Shown piece after piece: positions 1,364 through 63,602 of a stretch of DNA of 64,000 nucleotides. The notes under the pieces were generated by a model. It did no database searches. It was not told the origin of the DNA and saw nothing but the letters and a program-made list of their open reading frames with translations. The DNA comes from an uncultured Candidatus Saccharibacteria bacterium. GTDB taxonomy: Bacteria; Patescibacteriota; Minisyncoccia; Phycocordibacterales; JACNGX01. The stretch is from NCBI GenBank assembly GCA_964621395.1, contig CAZULS010000002.1, forward strand, positions 87,306 to 151,305, in the 5' to 3' direction. The position numbers and the translations under genes are program-made. Numbering within the stretch: position 1 is the stretch's first letter; each line of letters opens with the position of its first letter.

Positions 1364-1507
1364 TACGCGAATTACGAATATGATACGAATATACGAATTA
1401 CGAATACTCCGTCTGCTGTCATTCCGGACTTGATCCGGAATCTACAGGGTTATATAACCCACTCACTTCTGCCTGGATTCCTGGTCACCAGAGCCAGGAA
1501 TGACAAG
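1364..1507. repeat. Composite intergenic repeat: A-type TACGAA-rich arm followed by a B-type hairpin element (GTCATTCCGGACTTGATCCGGAATC ... CCAGGAATGACA)
   Basis: CGAATTACGAATATGATACGAATATACGAATTACGAATACT is followed by two perfect hairpins. The same families recur more than 15 times in the window. Confidence 0.6.
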
Positions 1508-2974: not shown

Positions 2975-3010
2975 GCGAACGATAAACTTTAAACGATAAA
3001 CGATAAAACA

Positions 3011-3069
3011 AAAAACACGAGTTTTTGCCCCGCGAAGCCTTGGCGGAGTGGGGTGAGCCCGTGTTTTTT
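3011..3069 (+). terminator. Intrinsic terminator downstream of rpoD (AAAACACG...CGTGTTTT stem enclosing a family-H hairpin)
   Basis: Inverted repeat AAAACACGAG ... CCCGTGTTTTTTGTG, with a T-run after the 3' arm. Confidence 0.5.
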
Positions 3070-3616: not shown

Positions 3617-4924
3617 ATGCAGAAAGGCCTCACAAAACGTCTTGTGCGTGATATATCAAAGGGGAAAGGGGAGCCGGCGTGGATGCGGGAGTGCCGCTTC
3701 GCCGGTTTTTCCGCGTATCAGAAGATGGATATGCCGAAGTGGGGTCCGGATCTCTCAAAGCTCAATCTGAAAGACATTTCTTTCTATACGCCGGCGCCTG
3801 TTGGTGAAGCAGACACATGGGAGGGTGTGCCCGAGGATGTGCGTAAGCCGTTTGAGAAAGCGGGTGTGGCGAAAGAAAAAGACATGGGCGGAAGCGGTGC
3901 GCAATTTGATTCGGGTGTGGTGTATCATCACATTAAAGAAACGCTCACTCGCCAAGGGGTGATATTTATGAATATGGACAGTGCGCTTCGTGAGCATGAG
4001 ACACTGGTGCGGGAATATTTTGGCTCGGTGGTGCGTCCCGATGAGCATATCTTCACCGCCGCACACTATGCGGCAACGAGCGGCGGGACCTTTGTGTATG
4101 TGCCCAAGGGTGTGCGCGTGTCACTTCCTCTTCAGGCGTTTTTCTGGATGAATAGTGACGGGGGTGGACAATTTGAACACACGCTGATCGTTGCCGATGA
4201 GGGCTCGTCGGTCACCTATATCGAAGGATGCGGATCGCCGGCATATCGCAATGCCGCACTTCACGCAGGTGTGGTGGAAGTGATTGTGAAGAAGAATGCA
4301 TCGGTGGAATATATTAGCATTGAGAACTGGGCGAAAAATACCTACAATCTCAACACCAAACGTGCGCATGTGGAAGAAGGAGGATCGATAAAGTGGCTCG
4401 GAGGAAATATGGGCGCCGGTGTGACCATGCTGTATCCGACATCTGTTCTGAAAGGGAAAGGGGCACGGGCTCATCACGAGTCTGTGGCTGTGGCAGGGAG
4501 TGGCCAGGTGCAGGATACCGGTGGACGAGTGATTCATGCTGCGGCTGAGACATCCTCGACTTTGCATTCGCGAAGCGTGGTGCGCGAAGGGGGAGTATCG
4601 AATTTTCGCGGACATGTGGAAGTGAAAGAAGAGGCCTCAGGTGCACTTTCCTCTATGGTATGTGATTCGCTCATGCTCGATAATGATTCATCTTCGGCGT
4701 CGTATCCGGTCGTTGCTTCAAAGCGGAGTGATGTGGAGCTTTCGCATGAGGCACGGATTGGCTCGGTGGGGGAAGAAGAACTTTTCTACGCAGCAACGCG
4801 CGGTCTTTCAGAGAAGGAGGCCGTCCGGCTTATCGTGGGCGGATTTGTGCAGCCCGTCATCCGTGCCATTCCGATGGAATATGCACTTGAGTTTAATCGT
4901 CTGTTGGATGAGGAATTTAAGTGA
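3617..4924 (+). CDS. sufB: Fe-S cluster assembly protein SufB (SufB/SufD family)
   Basis: Motifs VTYIEGCGSPAY...NTKRAHVEEGGSIKWLGGNMG are typical of SufB/SufD beta-helix proteins. It is the first gene of a suf cluster. Confidence 0.8.
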   Translation: MQKGLTKRLVRDISKGKGEPAWMRECRFAGFSAYQKMDMPKWGPDLSKLNLKDISFYTPAPVGEADTWEGVPEDVRKPFEKAGVAKEKDMGGSGAQFDSGVVYHHIKETLTRQGVIFMNMDSALREHETLVREYFGSVVRPDEHIFTAAHYAATSGGTFVYVPKGVRVSLPLQAFFWMNSDGGGQFEHTLIVADEGSSVTYIEGCGSPAYRNAALHAGVVEVIVKKNASVEYISIENWAKNTYNLNTKRAHVEEGGSIKWLGGNMGAGVTMLYPTSVLKGKGARAHHESVAVAGSGQVQDTGGRVIHAAAETSSTLHSRSVVREGGVSNFRGHVEVKEEASGALSSMVCDSLMLDNDSSSASYPVVASKRSDVELSHEARIGSVGEEELFYAATRGLSEKEAVRLIVGGFVQPVIRAIPMEYALEFNRLLDEEFK

Positions 4925-4928
4925 CAAA

Positions 4929-5043
4929 TACTCTAGGTTAAACCTAGAAAACAAGTACCGATAGCAAAGAGAAAAACATTTTTCAACAGGACAATAGATT
5001 TTTGATATAAAATAACGATATTTTCTAGGTTTAACCTAGAGTA
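4929..5043. repeat. MITE-like element with perfect 23 bp terminal inverted repeats TACTCTAGGTTAAACCTAGAAAA / TTTTCTAGGTTTAACCTAGAGTA (family G)
   Basis: Perfect TIRs flank ~70 bp of AT-rich DNA between sufB and sufS. Confidence 0.6.
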
Positions 5044-5051
5044 AACACTGT

Positions 5052-6272
5052 ATGACACATATTGACACTAAAAAAATTAAATCCGATTTCCCTATCTTCG
5101 GAAACATGCCGGAAGGTTTTGCGTATCTCGACAATGCGGCAACAAGCCAAACCCCGCAGTGCGTGATTGATGCGCTTACGAAATACTACACTCATGAACG
5201 CGCCAATATTCATCGTGGCTCATACGCGCTTGCTGAAAAGGCGACGGCTCGATATGAAGAAGCACGTGAACGCATTGCTGATTTTATCGGTGCAGAGAAA
5301 GAGGAGATTGTGATAAGCGGCGGGGCAACACTTGCCTCTAATATGCTCATACTCATGCTTGAGGCCGCCCACACCTATCGCGCGGGAGAGGAGATTGTAA
5401 CGACTGTCTCCGAGCATCATTCATTGCTTGTGCCTCTCCAGGAGCTTGCTGAGCGCAAAGGCATGAACCTACGCTTCGCGCCTCTTTGTGAGGGTGGTAT
5501 GGTTGATGAAAAGGAAATGAAAAAGCTCATCACGCGGAAGACGCGCATCGTGGCTATGAGCATGGCAAGTAATGTGACAGGCGCGGTGATGCCATATGAG
5601 AGAGTGATGCATGCGGCAAAGGAGGCGGGTGCTATCGGTATCTTGGATGGCACGGCATATGTTGGTCATGCGCCGCTGTCTGTGGGTGAGATGTCGGCGG
5701 ATGCAATGTTTTTCTCAGGGCATAAGATGTGCGGGCCGATAGGTGTAGGGATTTTGTATATGAAAGATTCGCTGATGAGGAGATTGCGCCCGGTCTTTTT
5801 TGGCGGCGGTATCGTGGAAGAGGTTACAAAGAGTGGTGCACGATGCACTGATGCGCCGTATAAATTTGAAGCGGGAACTCAGCCGATTGCGGAAGTGATT
5901 GGATTGGGGGAAGCAGCTACGTATCTTTCCGGTATCGGGCTTGAATCTATTTCCGCGCATGTCCGTGAGCTTGTGGATTATGCACGTGCCGAGATTGGGA
6001 ATATTCAAGGCGTGAAGATCTACGCTGCACCGGCGGAAAAGAACATTGGTATTGTGTCGTTTACGGTTTCAAATATTCATCCGCATGACATTGCGCATAT
6101 TGCAGGAGAGGAGGGAGTGGCACTTCGTGCCGGGCATCACTGCGCGGAGCCATTGGTGCGAGAGCTTGGAGAGGTGGCGACTGCCCGCGCGAGTTTTTAT
6201 CTGTATAATACAAAGGAGGATGTCGATGCACTCGTGCGTGCAATTAAAAAAGCCCAGCACATATTCACATGA
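5052..6272 (+). CDS. sufS: cysteine desulfurase SufS (class V aminotransferase)
   Basis: PLP-lysine region SGHKMCGPIGVGILY and a C-terminal RAGHHCA motif. 406 aa. Confidence 0.85.
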   Translation: MTHIDTKKIKSDFPIFGNMPEGFAYLDNAATSQTPQCVIDALTKYYTHERANIHRGSYALAEKATARYEEARERIADFIGAEKEEIVISGGATLASNMLILMLEAAHTYRAGEEIVTTVSEHHSLLVPLQELAERKGMNLRFAPLCEGGMVDEKEMKKLITRKTRIVAMSMASNVTGAVMPYERVMHAAKEAGAIGILDGTAYVGHAPLSVGEMSADAMFFSGHKMCGPIGVGILYMKDSLMRRLRPVFFGGGIVEEVTKSGARCTDAPYKFEAGTQPIAEVIGLGEAATYLSGIGLESISAHVRELVDYARAEIGNIQGVKIYAAPAEKNIGIVSFTVSNIHPHDIAHIAGEEGVALRAGHHCAEPLVRELGEVATARASFYLYNTKEDVDALVRAIKKAQHIFT

Positions 6273-6274
6273 TT

Positions 6275-6362
6275 GGGTACGAAGTACGAATCAATACGAA
6301 CATACGAAGACAGGGCCTGGAAAAGTAATGTTCGTATGTTCGTACTCGTTCGTAGTTCGTAA
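6275..6362. repeat. A-family palindromic element GGGTACGAAGTACGAATCAATACGAACATACGAAG...TTCGTATGTTCGTACTCGTTCGTAGTTCGTAA
   Basis: Imperfect inverted repeat of TACGAA hexamer arrays. It starts 3 nt after the sufS stop and ends 5 nt before the sufU start. A near-identical copy lies at 6728..6816. Confidence 0.7.
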
Positions 6363-6366
6363 TCAT

Positions 6367-6726
6367 ATGTATAATTTATACCACGAAGAAATTATGGAAC
6401 ATGCGCGCAACCCTCTTCATAAAGGGGTGTGTGAGGACGCGACCCATACACATAAGGGTGTGAATGCAGGATGCGGTGACGAGATTTCTCTTTCTGTGAA
6501 AGTCTCTGACGGTATCATTGAAAGTATGTGCTTTGATGGAGAAGGATGTGCGCTTTCCGTGGCTGCGTGTGATATGCTTTCCGGTGTGGTGAAAGGCAAA
6601 AGGGTGGAGGATGTGCTTTGTATGTCGCCGAAGGACATCTATGATATGCTTGGTGTTTCGGTGACGCCATCGCGAACGAATTGCGCTCTCTTGGGTTTAA
6701 GAACACTGCATAAGATGCTAAGGTAG
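6367..6726 (+). CDS. sufU: Fe-S cluster scaffold SufU/IscU-like (NifU N-terminal domain)
   Basis: GCGDEISLSV...FDGEGCALSVAA cysteine motifs. The longer predicted ORF (6046..) merely translates the upstream A repeat. Confidence 0.8.
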   Translation: MYNLYHEEIMEHARNPLHKGVCEDATHTHKGVNAGCGDEISLSVKVSDGIIESMCFDGEGCALSVAACDMLSGVVKGKRVEDVLCMSPKDIYDMLGVSVTPSRTNCALLGLRTLHKMLR

Positions 6727-6727
6727 C

Positions 6728-6816
6728 GGGTACGAAGTACGAATCAATACGAACATACGAAGACAGGGTCTGGAAAAGTAATGTTCGTATGTTCGTACTC
6801 GTTCGTAGTTCGTAAC
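6728..6816. repeat. A-family palindromic element, second copy
   Basis: Differs from 6275..6362 by one substitution. It fills the sufU-sufC spacer. Confidence 0.7.
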
Positions 6817-6819
6817 TAT

Positions 6820-7563
6820 ATGATTTTTTCTACACACAATATTCATATCACGACAAAGGACGGTACTGAAGTGGTTTCGGGTGTGTCGCTTGAGCTTGAA
6901 AAAGGGAAGTGTGCGGTGCTCATGGGGAAAAACGGATCCGGTAAGAGCTCGTTTGTCCTTGGATGTATGGGTCATCCGCGATATGCCATTACGGAAGGGT
7001 CGGTGCAGGTGAGCGGTATGGAGATAACCACTCTCCCTACACACGAACGCGCACGAAACGGCATGTTTCTTTCTCCGCAAGCATCCCCGGCTATTTCGGG
7101 TGTTGCACTTGGGTCATTTATCCGGTCTGCCGATACCCATCTTCATCCGAAGCATGAGCATACACCACTTGCATTTCATACAGAGCTCACCAAGAAAGCG
7201 ACGGAGGCAGGTTTTGATGCCGAGCTCCTCTCTCGTGGTGTGAATACTGAGCTTTCAGGAGGACAGAAAAAACAAACCGAGATTATACAGCTTCTTGCAC
7301 TTGCACCGAAGGTTGCGCTTCTTGATGAGATTGATTCAGGTGTTGATATTGAAACACTCAATGCCGTATGCGAGAGTATTCGAAAGGCATGTGAAAAGGG
7401 CACGGCAGTTCTCGTGGTAACGCATAATCCGGAAGTGGTGAAGAAACTTTCTCCCAACCGTGTGTACGTTATGGATGGGGGGAGAATCGTTGCTTCAGGT
7501 GATGCTTCGCTTGCGGAGAAAGTGAAAGATGAAGGGTTTGGCGGAGTGGAGGGAGAGACATAA
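6820..7563 (+). CDS. sufC: Fe-S cluster assembly ATPase SufC
   Basis: Walker A GKNGSGKSS, ABC signature LSGGQKK and Walker B LLDEIDSG. The start is at the ATG that follows the repeat. Confidence 0.85.
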   Translation: MIFSTHNIHITTKDGTEVVSGVSLELEKGKCAVLMGKNGSGKSSFVLGCMGHPRYAITEGSVQVSGMEITTLPTHERARNGMFLSPQASPAISGVALGSFIRSADTHLHPKHEHTPLAFHTELTKKATEAGFDAELLSRGVNTELSGGQKKQTEIIQLLALAPKVALLDEIDSGVDIETLNAVCESIRKACEKGTAVLVVTHNPEVVKKLSPNRVYVMDGGRIVASGDASLAEKVKDEGFGGVEGET

Positions 7564-7570
7564 GGGTACG

Positions 7571-7729
7571 CCTAGCCCGTGCCGAGCCACGGTCGGCCTA
7601 GGGAACTACGAACGAGTACGAACATACGAAACGTACCTTTACTGTCATTCCTTGCTTGACCAGGAATCTACAGGGTTATATGACCCACTCACTTCTGCCT
7701 GGACGGGATGACAAAAGAGAGGGATGACA
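7571..7729. repeat. Composite repeat: family-I hairpin (GCCTAGCCCGTGCCGAGCCACGGTCGGCCTAGGG), A-left arm, B-type hairpins
   Basis: The family-I sequence recurs at 46259..46291. The B hairpins are GTCATTCCTTGCTTGACCAGGAATC and others. Confidence 0.6.
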
Positions 7730-7772
7730 ACACATAGTTTATCGTTAATCGTTTATAGTGTATCGTTTACAT

Positions 7773-8075
7773 ATGCCACACACAGAAGACATACGAGAAG
7801 CGCTTAAAGAGGTGAAAGATCCGGAGCTTGATATTGATATTGTCACGCTCGGGCTTATTCGTGAGATTGCCATCGATGAAGAAAAGGAAGGAGAGGTGCC
7901 GGGTGTGGAGATAACGATGACCCTTACCACACCGCTGTGTCCTTTTGCCGATTCACTCATTGAGGCAGTGGAAGACACGCTCACAAAGCTTGGATTTGAA
8001 AATACTCGAGTAGAGCTTTCTTTTGATCCTCCGTGGGAACCGCCGGCAGATATTCGCACTATGTTGGGGGTGTAG
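7773..8075 (+). CDS. sufT: Fe-S assembly SufT-like protein (DUF59/MIP18 family)
   Basis: LTTPLCPFADSL motif of DUF59. I chose the ATG at 7773, which follows the TATCGTTTAC motif. The ORF track starts at a GTG at 7758. Confidence 0.7.
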   Translation: MPHTEDIREALKEVKDPELDIDIVTLGLIREIAIDEEKEGEVPGVEITMTLTTPLCPFADSLIEAVEDTLTKLGFENTRVELSFDPPWEPPADIRTMLGV

Positions 8076-10216: not shown

Positions 10217-10426
10217 GTGTGTGGGTGATTATGGATAAAACGAATTACAAATATAATACGAATATACGAATGGGTTTTATATTTGCTTCGGACTTACGAT
10301 TTTTGAGGTACCGTTATATTTTTTAGTGACATTTCTTAAAAGCGCATAACTTGAATACATGCATGTAATCAATAGAAGTACTATTGGGTATTCGTATATT
10401 CGCGTTATTCGCAATTCGTAATTACG

Positions 10427-11221: not shown

Positions 11222-11450
11222 AATAAAAAACGATTAACTATTAACGATAAACGAGCCTAAACGAGCACCTTCTTTGGGCGAGCCCAAAGAAGGTGCTCGT
11301 CGGCCACGGTAAAAATGAAAATAAGGCAGTAAAAACCTTCACGCATTATACCGCGCTACGGACGTTGCGCAAAGTATTGCGAAATGGGGAGATATGTGGC
11401 AGTATTGTTTCAGTTTCGTTGGCTCCATTCACTCAAAATATATGGGTTAT

Positions 11451-13474: not shown

Positions 13475-13480
13475 TCCACA

Positions 13481-13720
13481 TTACGAATTGCGAATAACGC
13501 GAATATACGAATATTGCAGCTAGAAACTAAATATCTGTCATCCTGAACTTGATTCAGGATCCAGAAAAAGTGAAGATTCCGGATCAAGTCCGGAATGACA
13601 CTAAACAAGATTCTCATTTTATACGCTACGAAATATAATACGGTGTATAGAAATCGTAAGCCCGAAGCAGGCAGGTCACCCATTCGTATATTCGTATTAT
13701 AATTCGTAATTCGCATATTG
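13481..13720. repeat. Composite A/B element: A-type arms (ACGAATTGCGAATAACGCGAATATACGAAT ... ATTCGTATATTCGTATTATAATTCGTAATTCGC) enclosing B-type hairpins
   Basis: Inverted A-type arms flank GTCATCCTGAACTTGATTCAGGATC and GATTCCGGATCAAGTCCGGAATGACA. Confidence 0.6.
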
Positions 13721-13721
13721 T

Positions 13722-14427: not shown

Positions 14428-15672
14428 ATGATTTTCTTCCGCACACTCAAAACTGCATGGGTCGCACTCTTCATCAATAAAGCGCGATCGCTTTTGACGA
14501 TTCTCGGCATTGTGATTGGTGTCATGGCGATTATTCTGATTGTCTCTATCGGAAAGGGCGCCGAAAATCTCATTTTGGGAGAAATTCAAGGTCTCGGTGC
14601 CGACATCATCAGCGTGAATCCCGGAAAAGAGCCGACGGGACCGTCGGATTCGATGAACGCTTACCTTTCCGATTCGCTCAAGGAGCGCGAGGTCAATGCC
14701 CTGCTCAAAGAGAGTAATGTGCCGGGTGTCGTTGAAATAGCACCCGCGGTCATGGTGTCGGAGTCCGTATCGTATCGCGGAGAAACGTATCGCCCGCAGA
14801 TTTGGGGATGGTCGGCGAAAATGATGGCGGAGATGTTTGATTTGCGTTTGGCATCCGGCATGCTCTTTGGCGAGAAAGAAAATCGGCAGAAAGAGAGTGT
14901 CGTTGTTATCGGACAGAAAGTCGCCGAAGAGCTTTTTGAGGGCGCCGATCCGATCGGCAAAGCGATACGCATTAAAAATCATAGTTTTCGGGTTATCGGT
15001 CTTTTTGAGAAGACCGGACAGGTGATGTTTACCAATGTCGATGAGGTGATACTCATGCCGCCAAATACGGCGCAGACGTACATTCTCGGCATCGACCATT
15101 ACCATGAACTCATGATTCGAATGGAGAACGCCGATATGGTGGATCAGGCGGTGCTTGATATTGAACGCACGCTCCGTGATTTGCACGACATTACAGACCC
15201 GGACAAAGACGATTTTTATGTGAATACGGCAAGTGAAATGATTAATATGGTGGGCACCATCCTCGGCGTGCTCACCGCCTTTCTTGCCTCCATGGTGGCG
15301 ATTTCACTTGTGGTGGGCGGTATCGGCGTGATGAATATCATGCTCGTGTCGGTTTCGGAGCGCACGAAAGAAATCGGTTTGCGCAAGGCGGTGGGTGCCA
15401 CCGAATCTGATATCCTGCGGCAATTTTTGGTGGAAGCCATTGTGCTCACCGGTGCCGGCGGTGTGATTGGTACAATCATTGGCTTTGCACTCTCGGCTAT
15501 TGCTGCTGTCATTCTTTCGCAGTCACTTGGTGTGGACTGGGAGATGACCTTCCCGATTTCAGCAGCCGCTCTCGGCATTGGTGTTTCGGCCGCCGTCGGT
15601 CTTATCTTCGGACTATACCCCGCGCGCAAAGGGGCAAAGAAGAGCCCGATTGAGGCACTAAGGTATGAATAG
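14428..15672 (+). CDS. ABC transporter permease, FtsX/MacB family
   Basis: N-terminal TM helix, large periplasmic domain and C-terminal 3-TM FtsX domain. The start is adjacent to the ATPase stop. Confidence 0.85.
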   Translation: MIFFRTLKTAWVALFINKARSLLTILGIVIGVMAIILIVSIGKGAENLILGEIQGLGADIISVNPGKEPTGPSDSMNAYLSDSLKEREVNALLKESNVPGVVEIAPAVMVSESVSYRGETYRPQIWGWSAKMMAEMFDLRLASGMLFGEKENRQKESVVVIGQKVAEELFEGADPIGKAIRIKNHSFRVIGLFEKTGQVMFTNVDEVILMPPNTAQTYILGIDHYHELMIRMENADMVDQAVLDIERTLRDLHDITDPDKDDFYVNTASEMINMVGTILGVLTAFLASMVAISLVVGGIGVMNIMLVSVSERTKEIGLRKAVGATESDILRQFLVEAIVLTGAGGVIGTIIGFALSAIAAVILSQSLGVDWEMTFPISAAALGIGVSAAVGLIFGLYPARKGAKKSPIEALRYE

Positions 15673-15723
15673 AAAACCGAGGTTAAACCTTGGTATACAT
15701 ACCAAGGTTTAACCTCGGTTTTC
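15672..15723. repeat. Perfect 25 bp inverted repeat GAAAACCGAGGTTAAACCTTGGTAT / ATACCAAGGTTTAACCTCGGTTTTC (family G-like)
   Basis: Directly after the permease stop. A related palindrome GCGCCAAGGTTAAGCTTTGGCA/TGCCAAAGCTTAACCTTGGCGC lies at 15814..15860. Confidence 0.6.
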
Positions 15724-15909
15724 TAAATCACAAATCCCAAGCATCAAATTCCAAATAATATCAAAATTCAAAATATGCAAACCCTACTACTTTCCACTGT
15801 CGAATGTCAAAAGCGCCAAGGTTAAGCTTTGGCAGAATTGCCAAAGCTTAACCTTGGCGCTTAGATTCCCGATCGAGTCGGGAATGACAAAATAGGATAC
15901 ACACAAAAA

Positions 15910-15946
15910 AACAGGCGCGGACATGAAATGTCCGCGCCTGTTTTTT
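15910..15946 (+). terminator. Intrinsic terminator (ACAGGCGCGGACAT-GAA-ATGTCCGCGCCTGT + T6)
   Basis: Perfect 14 bp stem followed by TTTTTT. Confidence 0.7.
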
Positions 15947-16024
15947 CCTCCTTGACATCATACTCAATATGTGTATTATGGAGGTAATCAAAGCAGTTCT
16001 TCCAATAATTTAGATTGAAGAAAA

Positions 16025-16558
16025 ATGACACAAAACTATGGTTTTCTTGGGTATAGGTATGTCCTTGGGCGTCTCGGACTCTTTGCTTGTTCGAGATTCA
16101 CTCTCTTCATGGTTTTGTTTACTTCCATTGGAGTGTTGGGTCTGGCGGCTGGTGGCTTGATCTGGATTATGTTTTTTCCGAAGGATGGATATTGGTATCT
16201 CGTAATGTTCCCTGTGGGTATAGTCCCCGCTAGTGTGTTTGGGATTATGTCAGTTATGGGAGCGAGGAAATATAGGAAATTGCTTCCAGAGTACTGGATA
16301 GACATGAGAAGAAAATATCTCAAAAAGTACCCAGAACTCGCTCAAATCCTTCATGACGGTGATTTGATTACCGATGCGGAGGTTGAGCGGCTGAAAAATC
16401 TCCGCGACAATTATATCCAGCTCAAATCACTTTTCGAGTGTAAGCTGGAAAAAGAAAAACAATTAGCGGAGCAAGCAAAAAAATTGAGGGAAGATATTGA
16501 GGAAACTAGCGCGAAACTTCGAAAGGAGGAAAAGGCGTTAAGGTTCCATAATGGGTAA
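16025..16558 (+). CDS. hypothetical membrane protein with C-terminal coiled coil
   Basis: 3 TM helices followed by a charged coiled-coil tail. Confidence 0.4.
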   Translation: MTQNYGFLGYRYVLGRLGLFACSRFTLFMVLFTSIGVLGLAAGGLIWIMFFPKDGYWYLVMFPVGIVPASVFGIMSVMGARKYRKLLPEYWIDMRRKYLKKYPELAQILHDGDLITDAEVERLKNLRDNYIQLKSLFECKLEKEKQLAEQAKKLREDIEETSAKLRKEEKALRFHNG

Positions 16559-16675
16559 AACCCGGACGGCACGTTGATTCGTGCCGTTTTTTTTGTGCAC
16601 AAAAGCGGGCGGCGACCGAAGGTCGCCGCCCGCTTCCCCCCTTTATCCAGTGACCAGCTACCAGACGACTAGCGA

Positions 16676-18101: not shown

Positions 18102-18103
18102 AG

Positions 18104-18358
18104 GTTACGAATTACGAATAACATACAAATCTACGAATGGTACGAATACTACGAATATCTCTTTTGCTGCCGTGCCCGAGCGCGACTTGTCGCGCTTTGC
18201 TGTCATCCCGCACTCTTTGCCGAGCACTTTTTTACTTTAGTAAAATGGTGCTTGGTGATGCAGGATCTAAAGGGTTATTGTAATCTGCTTAATTGCTCTG
18301 GATTCCTGGTCAAGCCAGGAATGACAGCAGGGGAGAAACCAAAGTTAAACCTTGGTCT
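18104..18358. repeat. Composite A-left arm + B-family hairpins + CCAAAGTTAAACCTTGG palindrome
   Basis: GGTTACGAATTACGAATAACATACAAATCTACGAATGGTACGAATACTACGAAT followed by GTCATCCCGCAC...GCAGGATC and GGATTCCTGGTCAAGCCAGGAATGACA. Confidence 0.6.
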
Positions 18359-19639: not shown

Positions 19640-19795
19640 CATACAATGAGAAGTTAGAAATTAGAAAATAGAAGTTAGAAAAGGTGCGCTACGCGCGCCT
19701 ACCTTGTCATTCCGCACTTGATGCGGAATCTTGCCGCGCGAAGCCTTGGCGGAGTGGGGACGCCGCGCCTACCTTGTCATTCCGGCCTCTTTATC
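19640..19795. repeat. Repeat cluster: TTAGAAGT/TTAGAAA array (family J), two B-type GTCATTCCGCACTTGATGCGGAATC copies, family-H motif GCGAAGCCTTGGCGGAGTGGGG
   Basis: Family H also occurs at 3035..3060 and, reverse-complemented, at 46524..46550. Confidence 0.55.
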
Positions 19796-27122: not shown

Positions 27123-27304
27123 CTGTCATCCCGCACTTGATGCGGGATCCAAGCAGACATAATTATGTAGGTAAAACTCTGGATTCCAGGGTCTTGTCAG
27201 GAATGACACATCCTAGGGTTATTCGAAAACCAAGATTGAGTTTTGGTATGAATACCAAAGCTCAACCTTGGTTTTAAGATCCCGCATCAAGTGCGGGATG
27301 ACAG
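27123..27304. repeat. Large B-family element with terminal inverted repeats CTGTCATCCCGCACTTGATGCGGGATC ... GATCCCGCATCAAGTGCGGGATGACAG and internal AAAACCAAG...CCTTGGTTTT palindrome
   Basis: 27 bp TIRs flank ~130 bp. A MITE-like organisation. Confidence 0.65.
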
Positions 27305-29054: not shown

Positions 29055-29070
29055 GAAGAGAAAATTAATT

Positions 29071-29257
29071 AGAGCCTGTTCGTAATCTCATGTCGTGCGT
29101 AATGCATCATATACCGAGCGAAAATCGTGAAAAGTGTTGATGGAGTACTGTCGTACTTCGAGACACTTTAAGCGATTTACAGCCGGTATATGGCGCATTA
29201 AGCCGACAAGGACATGTTCTTCTTCGTTCAATTCCGTTGAGATTATGAACAGGCTCT
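29071..29257. mobile_element. MITE family D copy 1 (~187 bp, 20 bp perfect TIRs AGAGCCTGTTCGTAATCTCA / TGAGATTATGAACAGGCTCT)
   Basis: The internal sequence carries a second inverted repeat TATACCGAGCGAAAATCG / CGATTTACAGCCGGTATA. Tandem copy at 29325..29512, third copy at 58698..58884, degenerate inverted copy at ~49497..49725. Confidence 0.7.
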
Positions 29258-29324
29258 TAGATGACACACTCAGTATATATGAGAATACCGATTGACTGAA
29301 AGTTTTTTTTGTTCTCTGACTTTA

Positions 29325-29512
29325 AGAGCCTGTTCACAATCTCATGTCGTGCGTGACACACTCATATACCGAGCGAAAATCGTGAAAAGTGTCGAAGGAG
29401 TACTGTCGTACTTCGAGACGCTTTGAGCGATTTGCAGCCGGTATATGAGTGTGTCAGCCGGCAAGGATATATCTTTCTTTCTCCTATTCCGTTGAGATTG
29501 TGAACAGGCTCT
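29325..29512. mobile_element. MITE family D copy 2
   Basis: ~85-90% identical to copy 1, with the same TIRs AGAGCCTGTTCACAATCTCA / TGAGATTGTGAACAGGCTCT. Confidence 0.7.
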
Positions 29513-29570
29513 AAGAGGAGAAAAAAGTGAGCGCGGCGGGGCAAAGCCCCGCCGCGCTAAGTGGTAAAAT

Positions 29571-31057: not shown

Positions 31058-31163
31058 TGTCATCCCGCACTTGATCCTACATTGCAAGCAATCGGATACA
31101 ATGCGGGATCTCGAGAGAGTTGTTTCATAACGTTTAGATCCCGCATCAAGTGCGGGATGACAG
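31058..31163. repeat. B-family MITE-like element (TIRs TTGTCATCCCGCACTTGAT ... GATCCCGCATCAAGTGCGGGATGACAG)
   Basis: Immediately upstream of the PBP2 start. The GTG that begins the predicted ORF at 31150 lies inside the right TIR. Confidence 0.65.
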
Positions 31164-32895: not shown

Positions 32896-32923
32896 GTTAG
32901 AAGTTAGAGACTAGAAGTTAGAA

Positions 32924-32976
32924 AAAAGGAAACAACAAGCGGCGCTCCTTTCAGGAGCGCCGCTTGTTGTTTTGTG
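32924..32976. terminator. Bidirectional intrinsic terminator (18 bp perfect stem AACAACAAGCGGCGCTCC-TTTC-GGAGCGCCGCTTGTTGTT)
   Basis: A-run upstream and T-run downstream. Shared by PBP2 (+) and the minus-strand tRNA-Glu-associated element. Confidence 0.7.
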
Positions 32977-34161: not shown

Positions 34162-34272
34162 GGGTACAAAGTACGAATATATACGAACATACGAAGATAG
34201 GGTTGTTTCGGAAAATGAATTGCAGGGTATACATTGTGTTCGTATGTTCGTACTCGTTCGTAGTTCGTAACC
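34162..34272. repeat. A-family element (GGGTACAAAGTACGAATATATACGAACATACGAAG ... TTCGTATGTTCGTACTCGTTCGTAGTTCGTAACC)
   Basis: Same architecture as 6275..6362, with a longer central spacer. Nearly identical to 36041..36152. Confidence 0.65.
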
Positions 34273-36040: not shown

Positions 36041-36152
36041 GGGGTACGAAGTACGAACGTGTACGAACATACGAAGATTGAGTTGTTTCGGAAAATGAAT
36101 TGCAGGGTATACATTGTGTTCGTATGTTCGTATTTATTCGTAGTTCGTAATA
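36041..36152. repeat. A-family element, near-duplicate of 34162..34272
   Basis: GGGGGTACGAAGTACGAACGTGTACGAACATACGAAG...TTCGTATGTTCGTATTTATTCGTAGTTCGTAATAACC. Confidence 0.65.
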
Positions 36153-38184: not shown

Positions 38185-38300
38185 GCGAATTACGAATCTG
38201 TACGAATATACGAATTACGAATACTTCATTTGTTGTCATTCCGGCCTCTGAGCCGGAATCCAGAGAGTTGTTTCATTACTCACTTCTGCCTGGACCGAGC
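38185..38300. repeat. A-left arm + B-family hairpins
   Basis: GCGAATTACGAATCTGTACGAATATACGAATTACGAATACT followed by GTCATTCCGGCCTCTGAGCCGGAATC. Confidence 0.55.
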
Positions 38301-38715: not shown

Positions 38716-38797
38716 AGGAGTGATGAAATAACAAATCACAAAAAACAAATCTCAAATAATACTCAATATCAAAATTCAACACTCAAACCCTTCTTAC

Positions 38798-38926
38798 TGT
38801 CATCCCCCACTCCGTGCCGAGCACTTTTTTCGCTTTGGCGAAAATGGTGCTTGGTGATGCGGGATCTAAGTAGAAGTAAGTGGTTGTTTTGATTTTTAGA
38901 TTCCCGTTCAAGCCGGGAATGACAGC
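38798..38926. repeat. B-family element (GTCATCCCCCACTCCGTGCCGAGCAC...GGTGCTTGGTGATGCGGGATC and GATTCCCGTTCAAGCCGGGAATGACAG)
   Basis: Shares its internal sequence with the 17312 and 18200 copies. Confidence 0.55.
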
Positions 38927-46238: not shown

Positions 46239-46302
46239 ATTAAGAATTACGAATTATGCCTAGCCTGTGCCGAGCCACGGTCGGCCTAGGGAATAAAGAA
46301 TG

Positions 46303-47112: not shown

Positions 47113-47278
47113 GGTATCATCTTTATTTTTGTTTAACCCAAAACACTATGTTTCGAGCAAAATACTGCTGATTACATATTATGGAATATATTGTTTTTGT
47201 CAAGCCCGCTTCGCTAAAGCTCTGCAGGGAGGGATGCGGACTATGATTCTTGTTTCGTAATTCTTCATTCTTGATTCT

Positions 47279-47354
47279 GAAAGAAATAATGCAAGCGCAG
47301 ATGTGATTTTTGCAATGTTGCAAAAATCACATCTGCGCTTGCATTATTTCTTTC
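47279..47354. promoter_or_regulatory. Perfect 37 bp inverted repeat (76 bp palindrome) GAAAGAAATAATGCAAGCGCAGATGTGATTTTTGCAA / TTGCAAAAATCACATCTGCGCTTGCATTATTTCTTTC, overlapping the infA promoter
   Basis: The right arm contains the -35 TTGCAT (47339..47344), followed by N16 and TATGAT (47361..47366), with the infA ATG at 47381. It lies in the divergent region between the 47112 and 47381 gene starts. Confidence 0.55.
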
Positions 47355-47380
47355 ATGTGCTATGATATGCGCCAATCGTA

Positions 47381-47714: not shown

Positions 47715-47785
47715 ATATTTTTTTAATTTCCTCATTCTTAATCTCCCATTCTATTTTCTAACTCCTAATTTCTAACTTCTAAACT

Positions 47786-48163: not shown

Positions 48164-48190
48164 TATTCATGCTAGCATATTGGCTTGTAT

Positions 48191-48392
48191 AGTAAGAATC
48201 TTTCTTAGTAAAAATGGCTTGTTATCGCGCCCGACATGTGAGCGAGACGACGATGCGGAGTGTAAGGTATATAGACATATGACGCACGCGAGCATCAAGT
48301 CGCAGCCACATGTCGGGCGCGAGAACTGCCAAGCAACAGCTTTTGCGTTTATTATTTTTTATTTTGCGGTTTTTACTAAGATAGATTCTTGA
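48191..48392. repeat. Family E ~200 nt long-hairpin element, copy 1 (outer arms AGTAAGAATCTTTCTTAGTAAAA / TTTTACTAAGATAGATTCTTGA; inner perfect stem GCGCCCGACATGTG / CACATGTCGGGCGC)
   Basis: It occupies almost the whole rpsM-rpsK spacer. The core AATGGCTTGTTNTCGCGCCC is shared with copy 2. Confidence 0.6.
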
Positions 48393-49496: not shown

Positions 49497-49725
49497 AGAG
49501 CCTGAAAAAGTGTTGCCTTTTCGAGAGTTTTGTGTTACACTTAGAATCTAATCAAGATTTCAACGCAAGAGGATAAAAATCCATGTTGCTTGCCGGCTGA
49601 AATGCCCATATCCCGGCTGCAAATCGTTCAAAGCGTCTCGAAGTACGACAGTACTCCTTCAACACTTTTCACGATTTTCGCTCGAGATATGAGCATTTCA
49701 CGCTCGACATGAAATCTTGCTCAGA
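49497..49725. mobile_element. Degenerate, inverted copy of MITE family D
   Basis: CCGGCTGCAAATCGTTCAAAGCGTCTCGAAGTACGACAGTACTCCTTCAACACTTTTCACGATTTTCGCTCG is the reverse complement of the family-D core. The termini are eroded. Confidence 0.5.
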
Positions 49726-49771
49726 TCCTTGTGTACGCGAAACGTAATCGCTGTTTTTCGTTTTATTCAAA

Positions 49772-49964
49772 GAACCGGTCTCACTGAAAATGGCTTGTTC
49801 TCGCGCCCACACTGCGAGCGAACCGACGTCGCGGAGACCATAACGTACTGTTTGTACGTTATGGTTGAGCGACAAGGTGCAGCCGCAGTGTGGGCGCGAG
49901 AACGGCGCATGCGCAGCTCCGGAATAAAATCTTCTTGTTTGAAGGTTTTCAGTGAGATTGGTTC
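49772..49964. repeat. Family E long-hairpin element, copy 2 (outer arms GAACCGGTCTCACTGAAAA / TTTTCAGTGAGATTGGTTC; inner stem CTCGCGCCCACACTGCG / CGCAGTGTGGGCGCGAG)
   Basis: The arms differ from copy 1 but remain perfectly self-complementary, i.e. compensatory change. It lies in the rpsD-rpoA spacer. Confidence 0.6.
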
Positions 49965-51023: not shown

Positions 51024-51218
51024 GGAACCCACCTCATATTAAAACGCCAGAGAAAGGACTCACGCACTTCGTGCAACGGCTTGACAGTTCTCGCACCACA
51101 TATTCGGCTGCACCTTGTCTCTCAACCGCACCGCACGAGTAGTGCGGCACGGTCTCCGAGACATCTACGCTGCGAATATGTGACACGAGAACAAGTCATT
51201 TAATATGAGGCGGGTTCC
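51024..51218. repeat. Family F ~195 nt long-hairpin element, copy 1 (outer arms GGAACCCACCTCATATTAAA / TTTAATATGAGGCGGGTTCC)
   Basis: It fills the rpoA-rplQ spacer. Internal CACATATTCGGCTGCA...CCGCACGAGTAGTGCGG...GAATATGTG. The homolog is at 57418..57600. Confidence 0.6.
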
Positions 51219-51939: not shown

Positions 51940-51975
51940 GGGTACGAAGTACGAACCAATACGAACATACGAATA
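51940..51975. repeat. A-family left half-element GGGTACGAAGTACGAACCAATACGAACATACGAATAC (solo)
   Basis: Immediately after the rplM stop. There is no matching right arm. Confidence 0.55.
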
Positions 51976-52074
51976 CAGTGTTTAAGAAGTATTCACGTGT
52001 ATCGTTTTTCATACCACAGACGACAGCAATAGTTTCAGTTTAACGTCTATAGTTTATCGTTTTTATTTACTTTC

Positions 52075-56868: not shown

Positions 56869-57093
56869 TGTCATCCCGCACTTGATGCGGGATCTCGAGA
56901 GAGTTGTTTCTTGACGTTTAGATCCAGCCCCACTTTCACTGATTAGTTTATATGGCTATTTTAAGATAGACGAAGTTTCTAACTTGCTTTAAAGAATAAT
57001 TTAATCAGTGAAAGTGGGGCTGGATGACAGCAAAAGAGAATAGCGAAGCAAAAGTCCTATTCGTATGTCCGTACATCTTCGTACTTCGTACCC
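56869..57093. repeat. B-family element (GTGTCATCCCGCACTTGATGCGGGATC ... CAGTGAAAGTGGGGCTGGATGACAGC) followed by A-family right half TTCGTATGTCCGTACATCTTCGTACTTCGTACCC
   Basis: The same B + A-right arrangement precedes trpS (62141..62277) and aspS (63488..63602). Confidence 0.6.
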
Positions 57094-57155: not shown

Positions 57156-57578
57156 GTGTCCATGCATATTGATTATGTTACGGTGCTGTTCTATTGCTTC
57201 CTCTGGCCCCTCCTCATCGGAGAGCTTTTTCTTTTTACCAGAAAAGATGAGGCTGTGATATGGCGACTTCGTATCGCTCTCGCAATTGTACTCCTCGTAG
57301 GAGTAGTCATGTATTCCTATTTCATGACGCCACCGGATGAGCTGCCGGCTCGTTTTCTTGTATCGCTCTTGGTCTTCACTAAGGGCGTTTTTTTGTGTAT
57401 ACTATGTAGAGCCTCTTTCATATTAAACCGCCAAAATGGTATTTTCACACTTTCGTATGAATGCTTGGCAATTCTCGCACACCATATTCGGCTGCATCTT
57501 GTTGCTCAACAGCACCGCACGAAAGTGCGGCGCAGTCTCCGCAACATCGGTTCGCACGAATATGCTGCACGAGCATAA
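57156..57578 (+). CDS. hypothetical membrane protein (questionable; C-terminal third is translated through family-F repeat)
   Basis: The N-terminal 100 aa are hydrophobic. The last ~50 codons coincide with repeat F copy 2. Confidence 0.3.
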
Positions 57579-58677: not shown

Positions 58678-58697
58678 TCGATCAATTTTTCTTTCTT

Positions 58698-62140: not shown

Positions 62141-62277
62141 TTGTCATCCCGCACTTGATGCGGGGTCTAAGCGTTACGAAACAACTCTTTCGAGATCCCG
62201 CATCAAGTGCGGGATGACAGGAAAAGAGAGTATTAAGAGCCTGTTCGTATGTTCGTACTGTTTTGTACTTCGTACCC
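62141..62277. repeat. B-family MITE-like element (75 bp, TIRs TGTCATCCCGCACTTGATGCGGGGTCT / AGATCCCGCATCAAGTGCGGGATGACA) + AGAGCCTGTTCG + A-family right half
   Basis: The TTG that starts the predicted trpS ORF lies inside the A repeat. The real start is 62314. Confidence 0.65.
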
Positions 62278-63309: not shown

Positions 63310-63602
63310 GTTACGAACTACGAATAATGCGAATATACGAATATAGTTTATATCAAGCAATACACGTGTTATCCTGGACTCTTGCCGAGCTCGACTTTCA
63401 CTGAATAAGCAAAAATATCAAAAACGATAGAAGAAAGAATAAAAAGTGTGTCACCAGAAATGCTTGTTGGTGAAAGTGAGGCTCTGGTGATTCAGGATCT
63501 CAAAAAGTGAAGATTCCGCATCAAGTGCGGAATGACAGTAAAGGTGGGTAATGGTATAGAAGATGTCTTCGTATGTTCGTATAACTTCGTACTTCGTACC
63601 CG
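63310..63602. repeat. Composite A-left arm (GTTACGAACTACGAATAATGCGAATATACGAATATAG), truncated B hairpins, A-right arm (TTCGTATGTTCGTATAACTTCGTACTTCGTACCC)
   Basis: It fills the trpS-aspS spacer. Confidence 0.6.

What the first reader, a model, noticed from the sequence alone, without database searches (positions are those of the whole stretch)
6275..7729. Intergenic spacers saturated with two co-occurring repeat families (A: TACGAA-hexamer palindromes; B: GTCATCCCGCACTTGATGCGGGATC hairpin MITEs), including interleaving between every gene of the suf operon
Family A (GGGTACGAAGTACGAA..TTCGTACTTCGTACCC, with arms made of phased TTCGTA hexamers) and family B (27 bp TIRs around a CCCGCA-N5-TGCGGG hairpin; copies of 75-180 bp) appear at 20 or more places in 64 kb. 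Examples are 1364, 6275, 6728, 7571, 13481, 17312, 18104, 19686, 27123, 31058, 34162, 36041, 38185, 38798, 51940, 56869, 62141 and 63310. They often form the composite A-left/B/A-right. Several predicted ORFs get spurious N-terminal extensions or alternative GTG/TTG starts inside these repeats. This density is unusual for a small streamlined genome. Solo half-sites of A (TTCGTA x4, phased ~8-10 bp) sit at fixed positions just 5' of gene starts (sufU, sufC, trpS, aspS, and the hypothetical gene at 57156). That raises the possibility that the A arms are protein-binding sites rather than only selfish DNA.
Basis: seen in the sequence. Interest (0 to 1): 0.55.

Follow-up and report, generated by a model that had tools for sequence, protein, structure and literature searches.

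The report
Nuclease-linked hexamer palindromes at gene boundaries
The spacers between genes in this small candidate-phyla-radiation genome hold two real repeat families: one looks like the hairpin targets of a recently described single-strand DNA nuclease, and the other belongs to an apparently undescribed class, found across phyla, of four-hexamer palindromes that in their long form carry the gene for a small nuclease of unknown function.

Summary
Both repeat families are real, far above chance, and present in about half of the intergenic spacers.

**Family A.** It is not lineage-specific. The arm (TACGAA x4, start-to-start 7/10/8 nt) occurs in more than 118 stretches from many Patescibacteria phyla and Bacteroidota. 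The arms almost always face inward and abut stop and start codons. Only the hexamers and their spacing are conserved between genomes. Copies within one genome also share loops and spacers.

Loop length is bimodal: 0-80 nt, or about 380-460 nt. The long loops hold a GxxExxY gene (PF13366, a PD-(D/E)XK nuclease of unknown function). In 67 distinct GxxExxY genes chosen by protein similarity alone, 36 had TACNAA/TTNGTA arrays on both sides (24-fold local enrichment). Distant clades carry other units (ACAGAA, CACGAAT). Between-arm covariation supports a folded form with a conserved 3x3 internal loop.

**Family B.** Its hairpin (TGTC-ATYCCNNN-CTTGA-NNNGGRAT-C) resembles the Neisseria NTS/dRS3 motif, which Ssn GIY-YIG nucleases cut.

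**Best reading.** These are nuclease-associated dispersed repeats of the REP-RAYT or NTS-Ssn kind. The window holds only ORF-less copies. A direct nuclease-repeat interaction is inferred, not shown. The gene-regulatory reading is not supported.

The parts
6275..6364 (.). Family A full palindrome between the sufS stop (6272) and the sufU ATG (6367). Left arm 6278-6308 (TACGAA x4), loop 6309-6330, right arm 6331-6361 (TTCGTA x4).
   Evidence: D13; I6. RNA fold -38.7 kcal/mol, z -5.7. DNA fold z -7.0.
6728..6817 (.). Family A full palindrome between the sufU stop (6726) and the sufC ATG (6820). 97% identical to the 6275 copy.
   Evidence: D13; I7.
7564..7630 (+). Family A left arm after the sufC stop. 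It is split by a 34-nt insert (GCCTAGCCCGTGCCGAGCCACGGTCGGCCTAGGG, 7570-7603). Hexamers at 7607-7630.
   Evidence: (D8).
7643..7730 (.). Family B element nested after the A left arm. Hairpin 7643-7668, a core shared with the 1417 copy, and a degenerate ...GGGATGACA right end.
   Evidence: (D9).
7738..7767 (+). ATCGTTT heptamer array (family C, T-rich form) ending 5 nt before the ATG of the FeS_assembly_P gene.
   Evidence: (D12).
34162..34272 (.). Family A full palindrome between divergent genes (an RNase_H-like gene on the - strand, a Na/Ca exchanger on the + strand).
   Evidence: D11; I8.
36042..36150 (.). Family A full palindrome after truB. 92% identical to the 34162 copy, loop included.
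   Evidence: D11; I12.
1368..1405 (+). A-type left arm (ACGAAT x5) 5 nt after the dnaG stop.
1417..1506 (.). Family B element. Hairpin 1417-1442 (TGTCATTCCGGACTTGATCCGGAATC), a core, and an inverted degenerate hairpin ending ...GGAATGACA.
   Evidence: (D6, D9). DNA fold z -4.6.
10241..10420 (.). Split A-type palindrome between two - strand genes. Left arm about 10241-10270, right arm 10389-10420.
13482..13713 (.). A-type arms (13482-13513 and 13682-13713) enclosing a B hairpin doublet. The orthologous spacer in relative L025 has TACAAA/TTTGTA-like arms and no B.
13536..13600 (.). B doublet: two inverted hairpins with different stems (ATCCTGAA/TTCAGGAT and ATTCCGGA/TCCGGAAT). Each folds on its own.
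15864..15889 (-). Solitary B hairpin (stem ATTCCCGA, loop CTCGA).
   Evidence: (D2).
18103..18156 (+). A-type left arm next to the start of the - strand ABC-transporter gene.
18197..18326 (.). B-type element. Left end TGTCATCCCGCAC..., right hairpin 18301-18326.
   Evidence: (D2, D20).
19705..19730 (+). B hairpin (stem ATTCCGCA), preceded by a TTAGAA array at 19650-19683.
27124..27303 (.). B element with perfect 27-nt terminal inverted repeats and a mosaic interior.
   Evidence: (I9).
31058..31162 (.). B element. Its right hairpin (31137-31162) overlaps the spurious GTG start of ORF 31150.
   Evidence: (D6).
38186..38222 (+). A-type left arm next to the start of the - strand PCMT gene, followed by B hairpin 38234-38260.
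38794..38924 (.). B-type element (89% identical to the 18197 copy at its left end). Right hairpin 38899-38924.
   Evidence: (D2, D20).
51940..51973 (+). A left arm after the rplM stop. The spacer ends with a C-type array (52039-52068) before rpsI.
   Evidence: (D4, D12).
56869..57093 (.). Composite after dnaK: B element 56869-57027, then an A right arm 57056-57093 (TTCGTACTTCGTACCC end).
   Evidence: (I4).
62142..62277 (.). B doublet 62142-62219, then an A right arm 62240-62277 running into the trpS start region.
   Evidence: (I13). DNA fold z -11.
63311..63601 (.). A arms (63311-63343 and 63564-63601) enclosing B-type sequence with hairpin 63512-63537, between trpS and aspS.
2978..3017 (+). 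AACGATA heptamer array (family C, A-rich form) starting 4 nt after the rpoD stop. Further copies at 11229, 27703, 30290, 30986 and 54792.
   Evidence: (D7, D12, D14).
32896..32925 (+). GTTAGAA array directly after a stop codon. The T-rich form lies at 47755-47785 directly before a start codon.

Best explanation
**Family A.** The window's copies are the ORF-less form of a widespread palindromic element. Each arm carries four phased TACNAA hexamers. The long form encloses a gene for a small GxxExxY PD-(D/E)XK nuclease.

My reading is that the hexamer arms are the recognition sites of that nuclease, and that it acts on a folded form of the DNA (a hairpin or cruciform): an outer helix, a conserved 3x3 internal loop, a 14-bp inner helix and a variable loop.

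- The nuclease gene is a stable resident at a few gene junctions.
- The ORF-less palindromes are its dispersed, non-autonomous partners. They are copied within a genome and survive only where DNA is dispensable, in the few nucleotides between a stop and the next start. That is why they abut coding sequences and why later insertions, such as family B, nest inside them.
- The relationship is of the REP/REPIN-RAYT or NTS-Ssn kind.

**Family B.** It is a mosaic element whose ends are NTS/dRS3-like hairpins, probably the targets of a second nuclease specific for single-stranded DNA.

**Shown:** the anatomy, the distribution, the association with the nuclease gene, the covariation, and the intact catalytic motif.

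**Inferred:** that the nuclease binds or cuts the arms, how the copies are made, and any benefit to the host.
For: **Distribution and placement.**
- The arm pattern occurs in more than 118 stretches across Patescibacteria phyla and Bacteroidota. My own estimate of the chance expectation is about 0.004.
- Inward-facing arm pairs outnumber outward-facing pairs 46 to 2.
- The outer edge lies within 60 nt of a coding-sequence boundary for 146 of 206 arms, against 255 of 1190 random positions. Distances peak at 1-7 nt from stops and 5-9 nt from ATGs.

**Copying.**
- Copies within one genome share loops and spacers. Between genomes only hexamers and spacing persist.

**Association with the nuclease gene.**
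- Loop length is bimodal, 0-80 or about 377-463 nt.
- 4 of the 6 loops of 150-2500 nt hold a GxxExxY gene; one holds no ORF and one is a 2.4-kb interval.
- 67 distinct GxxExxY genes chosen by protein similarity alone: 36 with arrays on both flanks and 15 on one. Array density is 4.36 per kb in the flanks against 0.18 per kb elsewhere.
- The hexamer variant (G, T or A at position 4) tracks the protein clade.
- Distant clades are flanked by ACAGAA/TTCTGT, CACGAAT/ATTCGTG or CGCGGAT arrays of the same architecture.
- The D...ExK motif is invariant. The model has pLDDT 92 and a PD-(D/E)XK fold.

**Folded form.**
- Covariation: 87.7% of cells paired, against 81.9% when shuffled (0 of 500 shuffles as high) and 30-39% in slid controls.
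- Compensatory pairs occur in the flanks and in the 1-nt and 2-nt spacers. Three positions of the middle spacer are mostly unpaired.

**Residency.**
- Identical proteins always sit in the same neighbourhood.

**Family B.**
- All 16 hairpins have TGTC at the 5' side, compensatory stems and a C at the 3' side.
- These match the features that matter for Ssn binding and cleavage (PMC11893778).
Against: - There is no GxxExxY gene and no small GIY-YIG gene in the 64 kb. A partner in this genome is therefore assumed.
- No biochemical evidence exists for any GxxExxY protein.
- No target-site duplication and no filled-versus-empty polymorphism were found. Strain-level variants of this genome are not in the public data.
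- 16 of the 67 GxxExxY genes lack strict arrays, and some lie outside palindromes (L122, L152).
- The match between hexamer variant and protein clade is confounded by host phylogeny.
- Half-arms paired with arms of another family (A left with C right) are not explained directly.
- Only 2 of the 16 B hairpins match the published SRM search pattern exactly.
Confidence: 0.55

Rival explanations
1. RNA-level elements. The arms pair in polycistronic mRNA to form an intercistronic stem. The stem is a processing site (for RNase III, or for GxxExxY acting as an RNA endonuclease), or it stabilises and insulates neighbouring cistrons. This would resemble the stems of 23S rRNA intervening sequences or REP hairpins in E. 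coli operons.
For: - The hairpins are stable as RNA: -38 to -43 kcal/mol, z -3 to -8.
- They lie inside operons, ending 5-9 nt before start codons.
- Covariation supports a conserved internal loop.
- GxxExxY genes are co-oriented inside highly expressed operons: rpsG|fusA, atpD|atpC, and before fmt.
- tRNA splicing endonucleases are among the fold matches.
Against: - G.T and A.C mismatches are equally frequent on the sense strand (7 against 9). There is no strand-specific wobble signal, though the numbers are small.
- Palindromes also sit between divergent genes (34162).
- Half-arms occur without a partner.
- Near-identical copies within a genome point to copying of DNA, not to independent selection at each site.
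Confidence: 0.2
2. Ordinary MITEs moved by a conventional transposase encoded elsewhere. The GxxExxY gene would be a passenger that tends to land in their loops.
For: - The elements are palindromic and nested, and copies within a genome are near-identical.
- Assemblies break at them.
Against: - No gene other than GxxExxY, transposases included, was found as cargo in the loops. Of six gene-sized loops, four hold GxxExxY, one has no ORF and one is a 2.4-kb interval.
- The gene fills the loop precisely.
- Different GxxExxY clades go with different array units.
- No target-site duplication is visible.
- The between-arm covariation with a conserved bubble is not expected for transposase-bound duplex ends.
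Confidence: 0.12
3. Duplex-DNA binding-site arrays for a host regulator or nucleoid protein that controls the adjacent genes.
For: - The hexamers are conserved while spacers vary.
- The arrays lie next to gene starts.
Against: - The arrays lie next to stop codons just as often.
- The adjacent genes have no functional theme: suf, truB, rplM, trpS, aspS, ABC transporters.
- Spacings of 7-8 bp put sites on different faces of the helix.
- Compensatory changes at unrecognised spacer positions are not expected.
- Promoter-like sites are not enriched.
Confidence: 0.08

Closest known systems
NTS/dRS3 hairpin repeats and the Ssn GIY-YIG single-strand DNA nucleases (Neisseria and many other bacteria; PMC11893778)
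   Same: **For B.** It has the same 5' GTCAT and ATTCC...GGAAT stem base and the same C after the palindrome. It is an oriented hairpin, often in inverted pairs around mosaic DNA. Other Patescibacteria loci carry TGTCATTCCCGCGAAAGCGGGAATCC, almost the NTS consensus.

**For A, by analogy.** A small single-domain nuclease gene is flanked by its own repeat, which is also dispersed through the genome. Different protein clades go with different motifs.
   Different: **B in this window.** It has a 5-nt CTTGA loop and a variable upper stem. Only 2 of 16 copies match the published SRM pattern. No ssn gene lies in the 64 kb.

**A.** It uses a different nuclease superfamily (PD-(D/E)XK). Its repeat is an array of four hexamers per arm with a conserved internal loop, not a simple hairpin.
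REP/REPIN elements and RAYT (IS200/IS605-like Y1) transposases; BIMEs of enterobacteria
   Same: - Short extragenic palindromes in many copies per genome, often as inverted doublets and mosaics.
- The partner gene is flanked by the repeats, present in one or a few copies, and inherited vertically.
- Repeat sequences are specific to a genome.
   Different: - No HUH/Y1 protein is involved.
- The hexamer sequence and spacing of A are conserved across phyla, whereas REPs differ between species.
- A lies within a few nucleotides of coding sequences.
Integron attC sites
   Same: - Imperfect palindromes directly after ORFs.
- Two helical boxes separated by a conserved unpaired central spacer, then a variable terminal loop of 3 to more than 80 nt.
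- Structure is conserved more than sequence, and the site is used in a folded single-stranded form.
   Different: - There are no R-box consensus sequences (RYYYAAC/GTTRRRY).
- No integrase is nearby.
- The flanking genes are housekeeping operon genes in conserved order.
- The arms are made of repeated hexamers.
Free-standing homing endonuclease genes and transposons with subterminal hexamer repeats (for example Ac/Ds AAACGG repeats). This comparison rests on my own knowledge.
   Same: - A small nuclease gene sits in the spacer between highly conserved genes (rpsG|fusA, atpD|atpC).
- Each end carries multiple short protein-binding repeats.
   Different: - The gene stays at the same junction over deep divergence, with an intact active site.
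- No cleavage site in a neighbouring gene is known.
- No transposase domain is present.

Membership tests
Ssn-related motif (SRM/NTS) hairpins: family B | Hairpin-forming inverted repeat of 20-50 nt | tested here: met
   All 16 hairpins have 8-bp stems with at most 1 mismatch. The DNA fold has z -4.6 to -11.
Ssn-related motif (SRM/NTS) hairpins: family B | Oriented conserved flanks: GTC upstream of the palindrome and C directly after it. These positions are critical for cleavage and binding (PMC11893778). | tested here: met
   16 of 16 have TGTC at the 5' side and C at the 3' side (paper text).
Ssn-related motif (SRM/NTS) hairpins: family B | Match to the published search pattern HGTCWYN(0-2)YYVSBRHN(0-5)WNVSBRGN(0-2)RNCYNB | tested here: inconclusive
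   There are 2 exact matches in the window against 0.24 expected. The other 14 hairpins miss it.
Ssn-related motif (SRM/NTS) hairpins: family B | A cd10448 GIY-YIG (ssn) gene in the genome, typically flanked by the motif | not testable with these tools
   A motif scan found no small GIY-YIG ORF in the 64 kb. The rest of the genome is not available.
REP/REPIN-RAYT | A partner gene encoding an IS200/IS605-like Y1 (HUH) transposase flanked by the repeats | tested here: not met
   The only cargo or partner gene found is GxxExxY (PF13366, a PD-(D/E)XK protein).
REP/REPIN-RAYT | Many dispersed extragenic palindromes, with inverted doublets, per genome | tested here: met
Integron attC | R''/R' core sites (RYYYAAC ... 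GTTRRRY) and a nearby intI | tested here: not met
   The arms begin GGGTACGAAG and end CTTCGTACCC. The genes annotated in the window include no integrase.
GxxExxY-associated hexamer-array palindrome (class proposed here): family A | Two inverted arms, each of 3-4 TACNAA units with start-to-start spacing about 7/10/8, facing inward | tested here: met
   There are four full copies and at least ten partial copies in the window. The geometry is the same in 81 distinct palindromes from other genomes.
GxxExxY-associated hexamer-array palindrome (class proposed here): family A | A GxxExxY (TIGR04256/PF13366) gene of the matching clade in the same genome | not testable with these tools
   tblastn finds none in the window. 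The association is shown only in other genomes.
Rfam RNA families | A match at the gathering threshold | tested here: not met
   Only two tRNAs match. Below threshold there are only generic hairpin matches to miRNA models.

The most novel reading that the evidence does not exclude
GxxExxY proteins (PF13366, about 15,000 clusters at 50% identity) would be a large family of site- and structure-specific nucleases. Each clade would be matched to its own short repeat unit (TACGAA, TACTAA, TACAAA, ACAGAA, CACGAAT and others) presented as phased arrays on a folded palindrome. Together they would form a previously unrecognised nuclease-repeat partnership that shapes gene boundaries in Patescibacteria and Bacteroidota. 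The window's other arrays (AACGATA, GTTAGAA, CAAAT) would be further members.
Probability: 0.35. Interest if true: 0.8.

Novelty: new variant of a known kind. Interest (0 to 1): 0.68.

Why it matters
**A testable function for an unknown family.** PF13366/TIGR04256 is large and has no known function. The work here names a concrete candidate substrate for it, the hexamer palindrome flanking each gene. This is the same kind of genomic clue that led to the Ssn nucleases.

**Practical consequences for streamlined genomes.**
- It explains why intergenic DNA in these small genomes is full of repeats.
- It explains why assemblies break there.
- It explains why gene callers produce false N-terminal extensions.

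**Possible applications.** If the clade-to-hexamer matching holds, the family could supply nucleases with varied short specificities.

**Extension of a known motif.** NTS-like hairpins, described mainly in Pseudomonadati, are here extended to Patescibacteria.

Tried and rejected
- **Rfam.** No family matched, at either the gathering or the permissive threshold.
- **Promoter scan.** No enrichment: 24 sites against 25.9 expected.
- **TIGR-Tas guide arrays** (papers found). Rejected, from my own knowledge of TIGR array structure: the spacers between hexamers are only 1-5 nt.
- **RNA-specific wobble asymmetry.** None seen: 7 G.T against 9 A.C.
- **Strain-level presence or absence.**
  - The sufU protein is not on record.
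  - sufS and the FeS_assembly_P gene are found only on short contigs of the same organism, and these end at the repeats.
- **Empty rpsG|fusA junctions.** None in the fetched loci.
- **Recent mobility of the nuclease gene.** Identical proteins always lie in one context.
- **Plasmid collection.** tblastn found no GxxExxY hit.
- **Literature.** No paper holds the hexamer strings, and none describes a function for GxxExxY. The search on B end strings was uninformative.
- **First attempt to scan metagenomes.** It failed with a diverse alignment and was repeated with four closer sequences. The 80-locus sample is therefore from one clade. Distant clades were sampled separately.
- **Target-site duplications.** None evident at the four full A copies (read).
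Full report
**1. Observation**

The region 6275-7729 lies in a suf operon: sufBD 3617-4924, sufS 5052-6272, sufU 6367-6726, sufC 6820-7563 and an FeS_assembly_P gene 7773-8075 (Pfam).

- The spacers sufS|sufU and sufU|sufC each hold a 95-nt palindrome. The two copies are 97% identical.
- Each palindrome has a left arm TACGAA-G-TACGAA-TCAA-TACGAA-CA-TACGAA, a 22-nt loop, and a mirrored right arm of TTCGTA units. It ends 5 nt before the ATG.
- The third spacer (7564-7772) is a composite of an A left arm, a B element and an ATCGTTT array.

Chance controls are decisive:

| Pattern | Found | Expected |
|---|---|---|
| TTCGTACTTCGTACCC, up to 2 mismatches | 10 | 0.03 |
| B hairpin, up to 3 mismatches | 8 | 0 |
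| TTCGTA | 108 | 32.7 |
| Short-period arrays, unbiased scan | 44 | 2-4 |

Of the 44 arrays, 28 lie in the 19% of the window that is intergenic. By my reading of the spacer listing, about half of the 47 spacers longer than 40 nt carry A and/or B.

The window is 47% G+C. Its nearest fetched relative is a Parcubacteria MAG, NIOZ-UU136, at 75-86% nucleotide identity. Only 2 of 43 genes have a Shine-Dalgarno-like motif.

**2. Family A is not lineage-specific**

- The hits come from Nomura-, Doudna-, Moran-, Falkow-, Sungii-, Terry-, Nealson- and Uhrbacteria, Saccharibacteria and other Parcubacteria.
- About 16 of the 80 listed rows are Bacteroidota MAGs, and a few carry other labels.
- With 24 specified bases in 1.2e12 positions, I estimate a chance expectation of about 0.004.

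In these loci the arrangement is regular:

- A TACGAA cluster is followed by a TTCGTA cluster 46 times. The reverse order occurs twice.
- The outer edges abut coding sequence. 146 of 206 clusters lie within 60 nt of a stop or an ORF-opening ATG, against 255 of 1190 random positions. Distances peak at 1-7 nt from stops and 5-9 nt from ATGs.

Copies within one genome share spacers and loops, for example L017 (three copies), L027 (three), L039 and the window pairs. Between genomes only the hexamers and their spacing survive. That pattern indicates copying within genomes plus a constraint on the hexamers that is shared across phyla.

**3. The long form carries a nuclease gene**

The distance between arms is bimodal: 0-80 nt, or about 377-463 nt. 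Six inward-facing pairs have 150-2500 nt between them.

- Four hold a gene for a GxxExxY protein (TIGR04256 at 90-98 bits; PF13366 PDDEXK_3).
- One has no ORF.
- One is a 2.4-kb interval.

To remove the ascertainment bias, 80 metagenome loci were fetched by protein similarity alone. Among 67 distinct genes:

- 36 have a cluster of at least three TAC[G/T/A]AA on the left and TT[C/A/T]GTA on the right.
- 15 have a cluster on one side.
- 16 have none by this strict rule.
- Cluster density is 4.36 per kb in the 160-nt flanks against 0.18 per kb in the rest of the same loci.

The architecture is compact: stop of the upstream gene, 2-6 nt, left arm, 0-30 nt, GxxExxY ORF, 0-15 nt, right arm, 2-8 nt, ATG of the downstream gene. 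All are co-oriented.

The contexts differ. 22 of the 80 loci show rpsG and/or fusA next to the gene, and in 20 it lies between the two. Others lie beside a hydrogenase large subunit and hypA, or before rpmE (these three identified by reading the translated flanks), between atpD and atpC, or before fmt.

The hexamer variant tracks the protein clade. Distant family members are flanked by arrays of other units in the same arrangement:

- ACAGAA/TTCTGT (L005, L201)
- CACGAAT/ATTCGTG (L205, L207, L209)
- CGCGGAT and CGCGGCG (L089, and the second gene of L067)

One contig can hold two paralogues with different arrays (L067).

Properties of the protein:

- The motif D...ExK and the G and E of GxxExxY are invariant.
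- The AlphaFold model is confident (pLDDT 92).
- It matches only generic PD-(D/E)XK folds: Cas4, lambda exonuclease, Hjc and tRNA splicing endonuclease.
- The family has 15,370 representatives at E up to 1e-3, including fused two-domain forms.
- No paper in the held library assigns it a function.

**4. A folded form is under constraint**

On 28 distinct palindromes of identical geometry (alignment A4):

- 87.7% of cells pair, against 81.9% in shuffles (0 of 500 as high) and 30-39% when partners are slid.
- Compensatory changes occur where sequence is free: the two positions outside the outer hexamer (UA, AU, CG and GC all seen), the 1-nt spacer, the 2-nt inner spacer, and the variable fourth hexamer position.
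- Three of the four middle-spacer positions are mostly unpaired (16, 21 and 19 of 28).
- The middle spacers often differ in length between arms (31 of 81).

So the conserved object is: an outer helix, a 3x3 internal loop, a 14-bp inner helix and a variable loop. Simple inverted duplication would have made the middle spacer complementary as well.

G.T and A.C mismatches are equally common on the sense strand (7 against 9). Nothing therefore favours RNA over DNA, but the numbers are small. The elements fold well as either molecule.

**5. Mobility**

- ORF-less copies show recent copying within a genome: 97% and 92% identical pairs in the window.
- The nuclease gene is resident. Identical proteins are always found in one neighbourhood (P0121 in 20 contigs, P0086 in 24).
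- Junction type clusters on the protein tree.
- This is the pattern reported for RAYT and Ssn partners, not that of an active insertion sequence.
- In the one orthologous comparison available, the relative L025 has TACAAA/TTTGTA-like arms at the spacer matching window 13475-13721 and lacks the nested B hairpins.

**6. Family B**

The 16 hairpins read TGTC-ATYCCNNN-CTTGA-NNNGGRAT-C, with compensatory upper stems (CCGCA/TGCGG, CCGGA/TCCGG, CTGAA/TTCAG, CCTGG/CCAGG).

- They occur singly, as inverted doublets (62142-62219, 13536-13600), or as the ends of mosaic elements of 100-180 nt (27124-27303).
- They nest inside A.
- Other Patescibacteria loci carry TGTCATTCCCGCGAAAGCGGGAATCC. This is almost the Neisseria NTS consensus CGTCATTCCCGCGMAVGCGGGAATCYRG, which contains dRS3 (ATTCCCN8GGGAAT).
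- PMC11893778 shows that NTS is bound and cut, as single-stranded DNA only, by the 94-aa GIY-YIG nuclease SsnA.
  - The three bases upstream of the palindrome are critical for cleavage, and the C after it is critical for binding.
  - ssn genes are flanked by their own motifs across phyla.
- B keeps those flank positions in 16 of 16 copies. Only 2 of 16 match the paper's degenerate SRM pattern.
- No small GIY-YIG ORF lies in the window.

**7. Interpretation**

The best-supported reading is that both families are nuclease-associated dispersed repeats.

- For A, the partner is a GxxExxY PD-(D/E)XK nuclease, and the window shows only the non-autonomous palindromes.
- Their position at gene boundaries follows from compact gene spacing. 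The palindrome fills the only dispensable DNA, and later elements land inside it.
- The direct nuclease-repeat interaction, the copying mechanism and any host benefit are inferences.
- The other short-period arrays in the window are AACGATA, GTTAGAA and CAAAT. They obey the same polarity rule: the A-rich form lies next to the left gene and the T-rich form next to the right gene. They may be diverged members of the class. This was not tested.

**8. Comparison and novelty**

- B is a new member, in a new phylum, of a kind described in 2025.
- A resembles REP-RAYT and NTS-Ssn in logic and attC in folded geometry. It differs in nuclease superfamily and in having arrays of phased hexamers.
- I found no description of A in the held literature.
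- I rate A a new variant of a known kind.

Noticed in passing
window 29069-29260, 29320-29517, 58693-58830, about 49590-49700 (- strand): A further repeat family of about 200 nt, with 25-nt terminal inverted repeats (CTTTAAGAGCCTGTTCACAATCTCA) and an internal inverted repeat. One copy runs into the start of the gene at 58818.
   Followed up: no
window 47278-47355: A perfect 38-nt palindrome (2-nt centre) just upstream of infA. It gives only generic miRNA-hairpin matches in Rfam, all below threshold.
   Followed up: no
window 4929-5043, 15670-15725, 15811-15862, 18340-18357, 27230-27290: Palindromes with a GGTTAAACC core. This family, not A or B, occupies the sufBD|sufS spacer.
   Followed up: no
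window 7570-7603 and 46258-46291: A 34-nt G+C-rich unit (GCCTAGCCCGTGCCGAGCCACGGTCGGCCTAGGG) inserted inside A-type left arms. A separate unit, CCCCGCGAAGCCTTGGCGGAGTGGGG, recurs at 3027, 19735, 46530 and 47205.
   Followed up: no
window, all gene starts: Only 2 of 43 genes have a Shine-Dalgarno-like motif. The 20 nt before start codons are G-poor and T-rich, as are the right-hand arrays.
   Followed up: partly
window 15673-16675 compared with L025 1956-2264: The relative NIOZ-UU136 has 307 nt where the window has 1004 nt. ORF 16025-16558 (no family match) and its flanking repeats are specific to the window genome.
   Followed up: partly
L050 3421-3730 (Bacteroidota MAG): A TACGAA arm amplified as four tandem 60-nt units, followed directly by a (GCTAGAA)n run. 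Arrays can expand in tandem.
   Followed up: no
protein representatives: Many GxxExxY representatives of about 265 aa have two matched stretches (fused tandem domains). This suggests that the working unit is at least a dimer.
   Followed up: no
L038 3574-4329: Two NTS-like hairpins (TGTCATTCCCGCGAAAGCGGGAATC) in inverted orientation flank a 208-aa ORF next to dnaK. This is an NTS-gene-NTS arrangement in a Patescibacteria MAG.
   Followed up: no
window 48185-48260 with 49761-49836, and 51068-51138 with 57452-57522: Two pairs of repeats of about 75 nt (74% and 82% identity), near ribosomal-protein genes and upstream of dnaJ.
   Followed up: no
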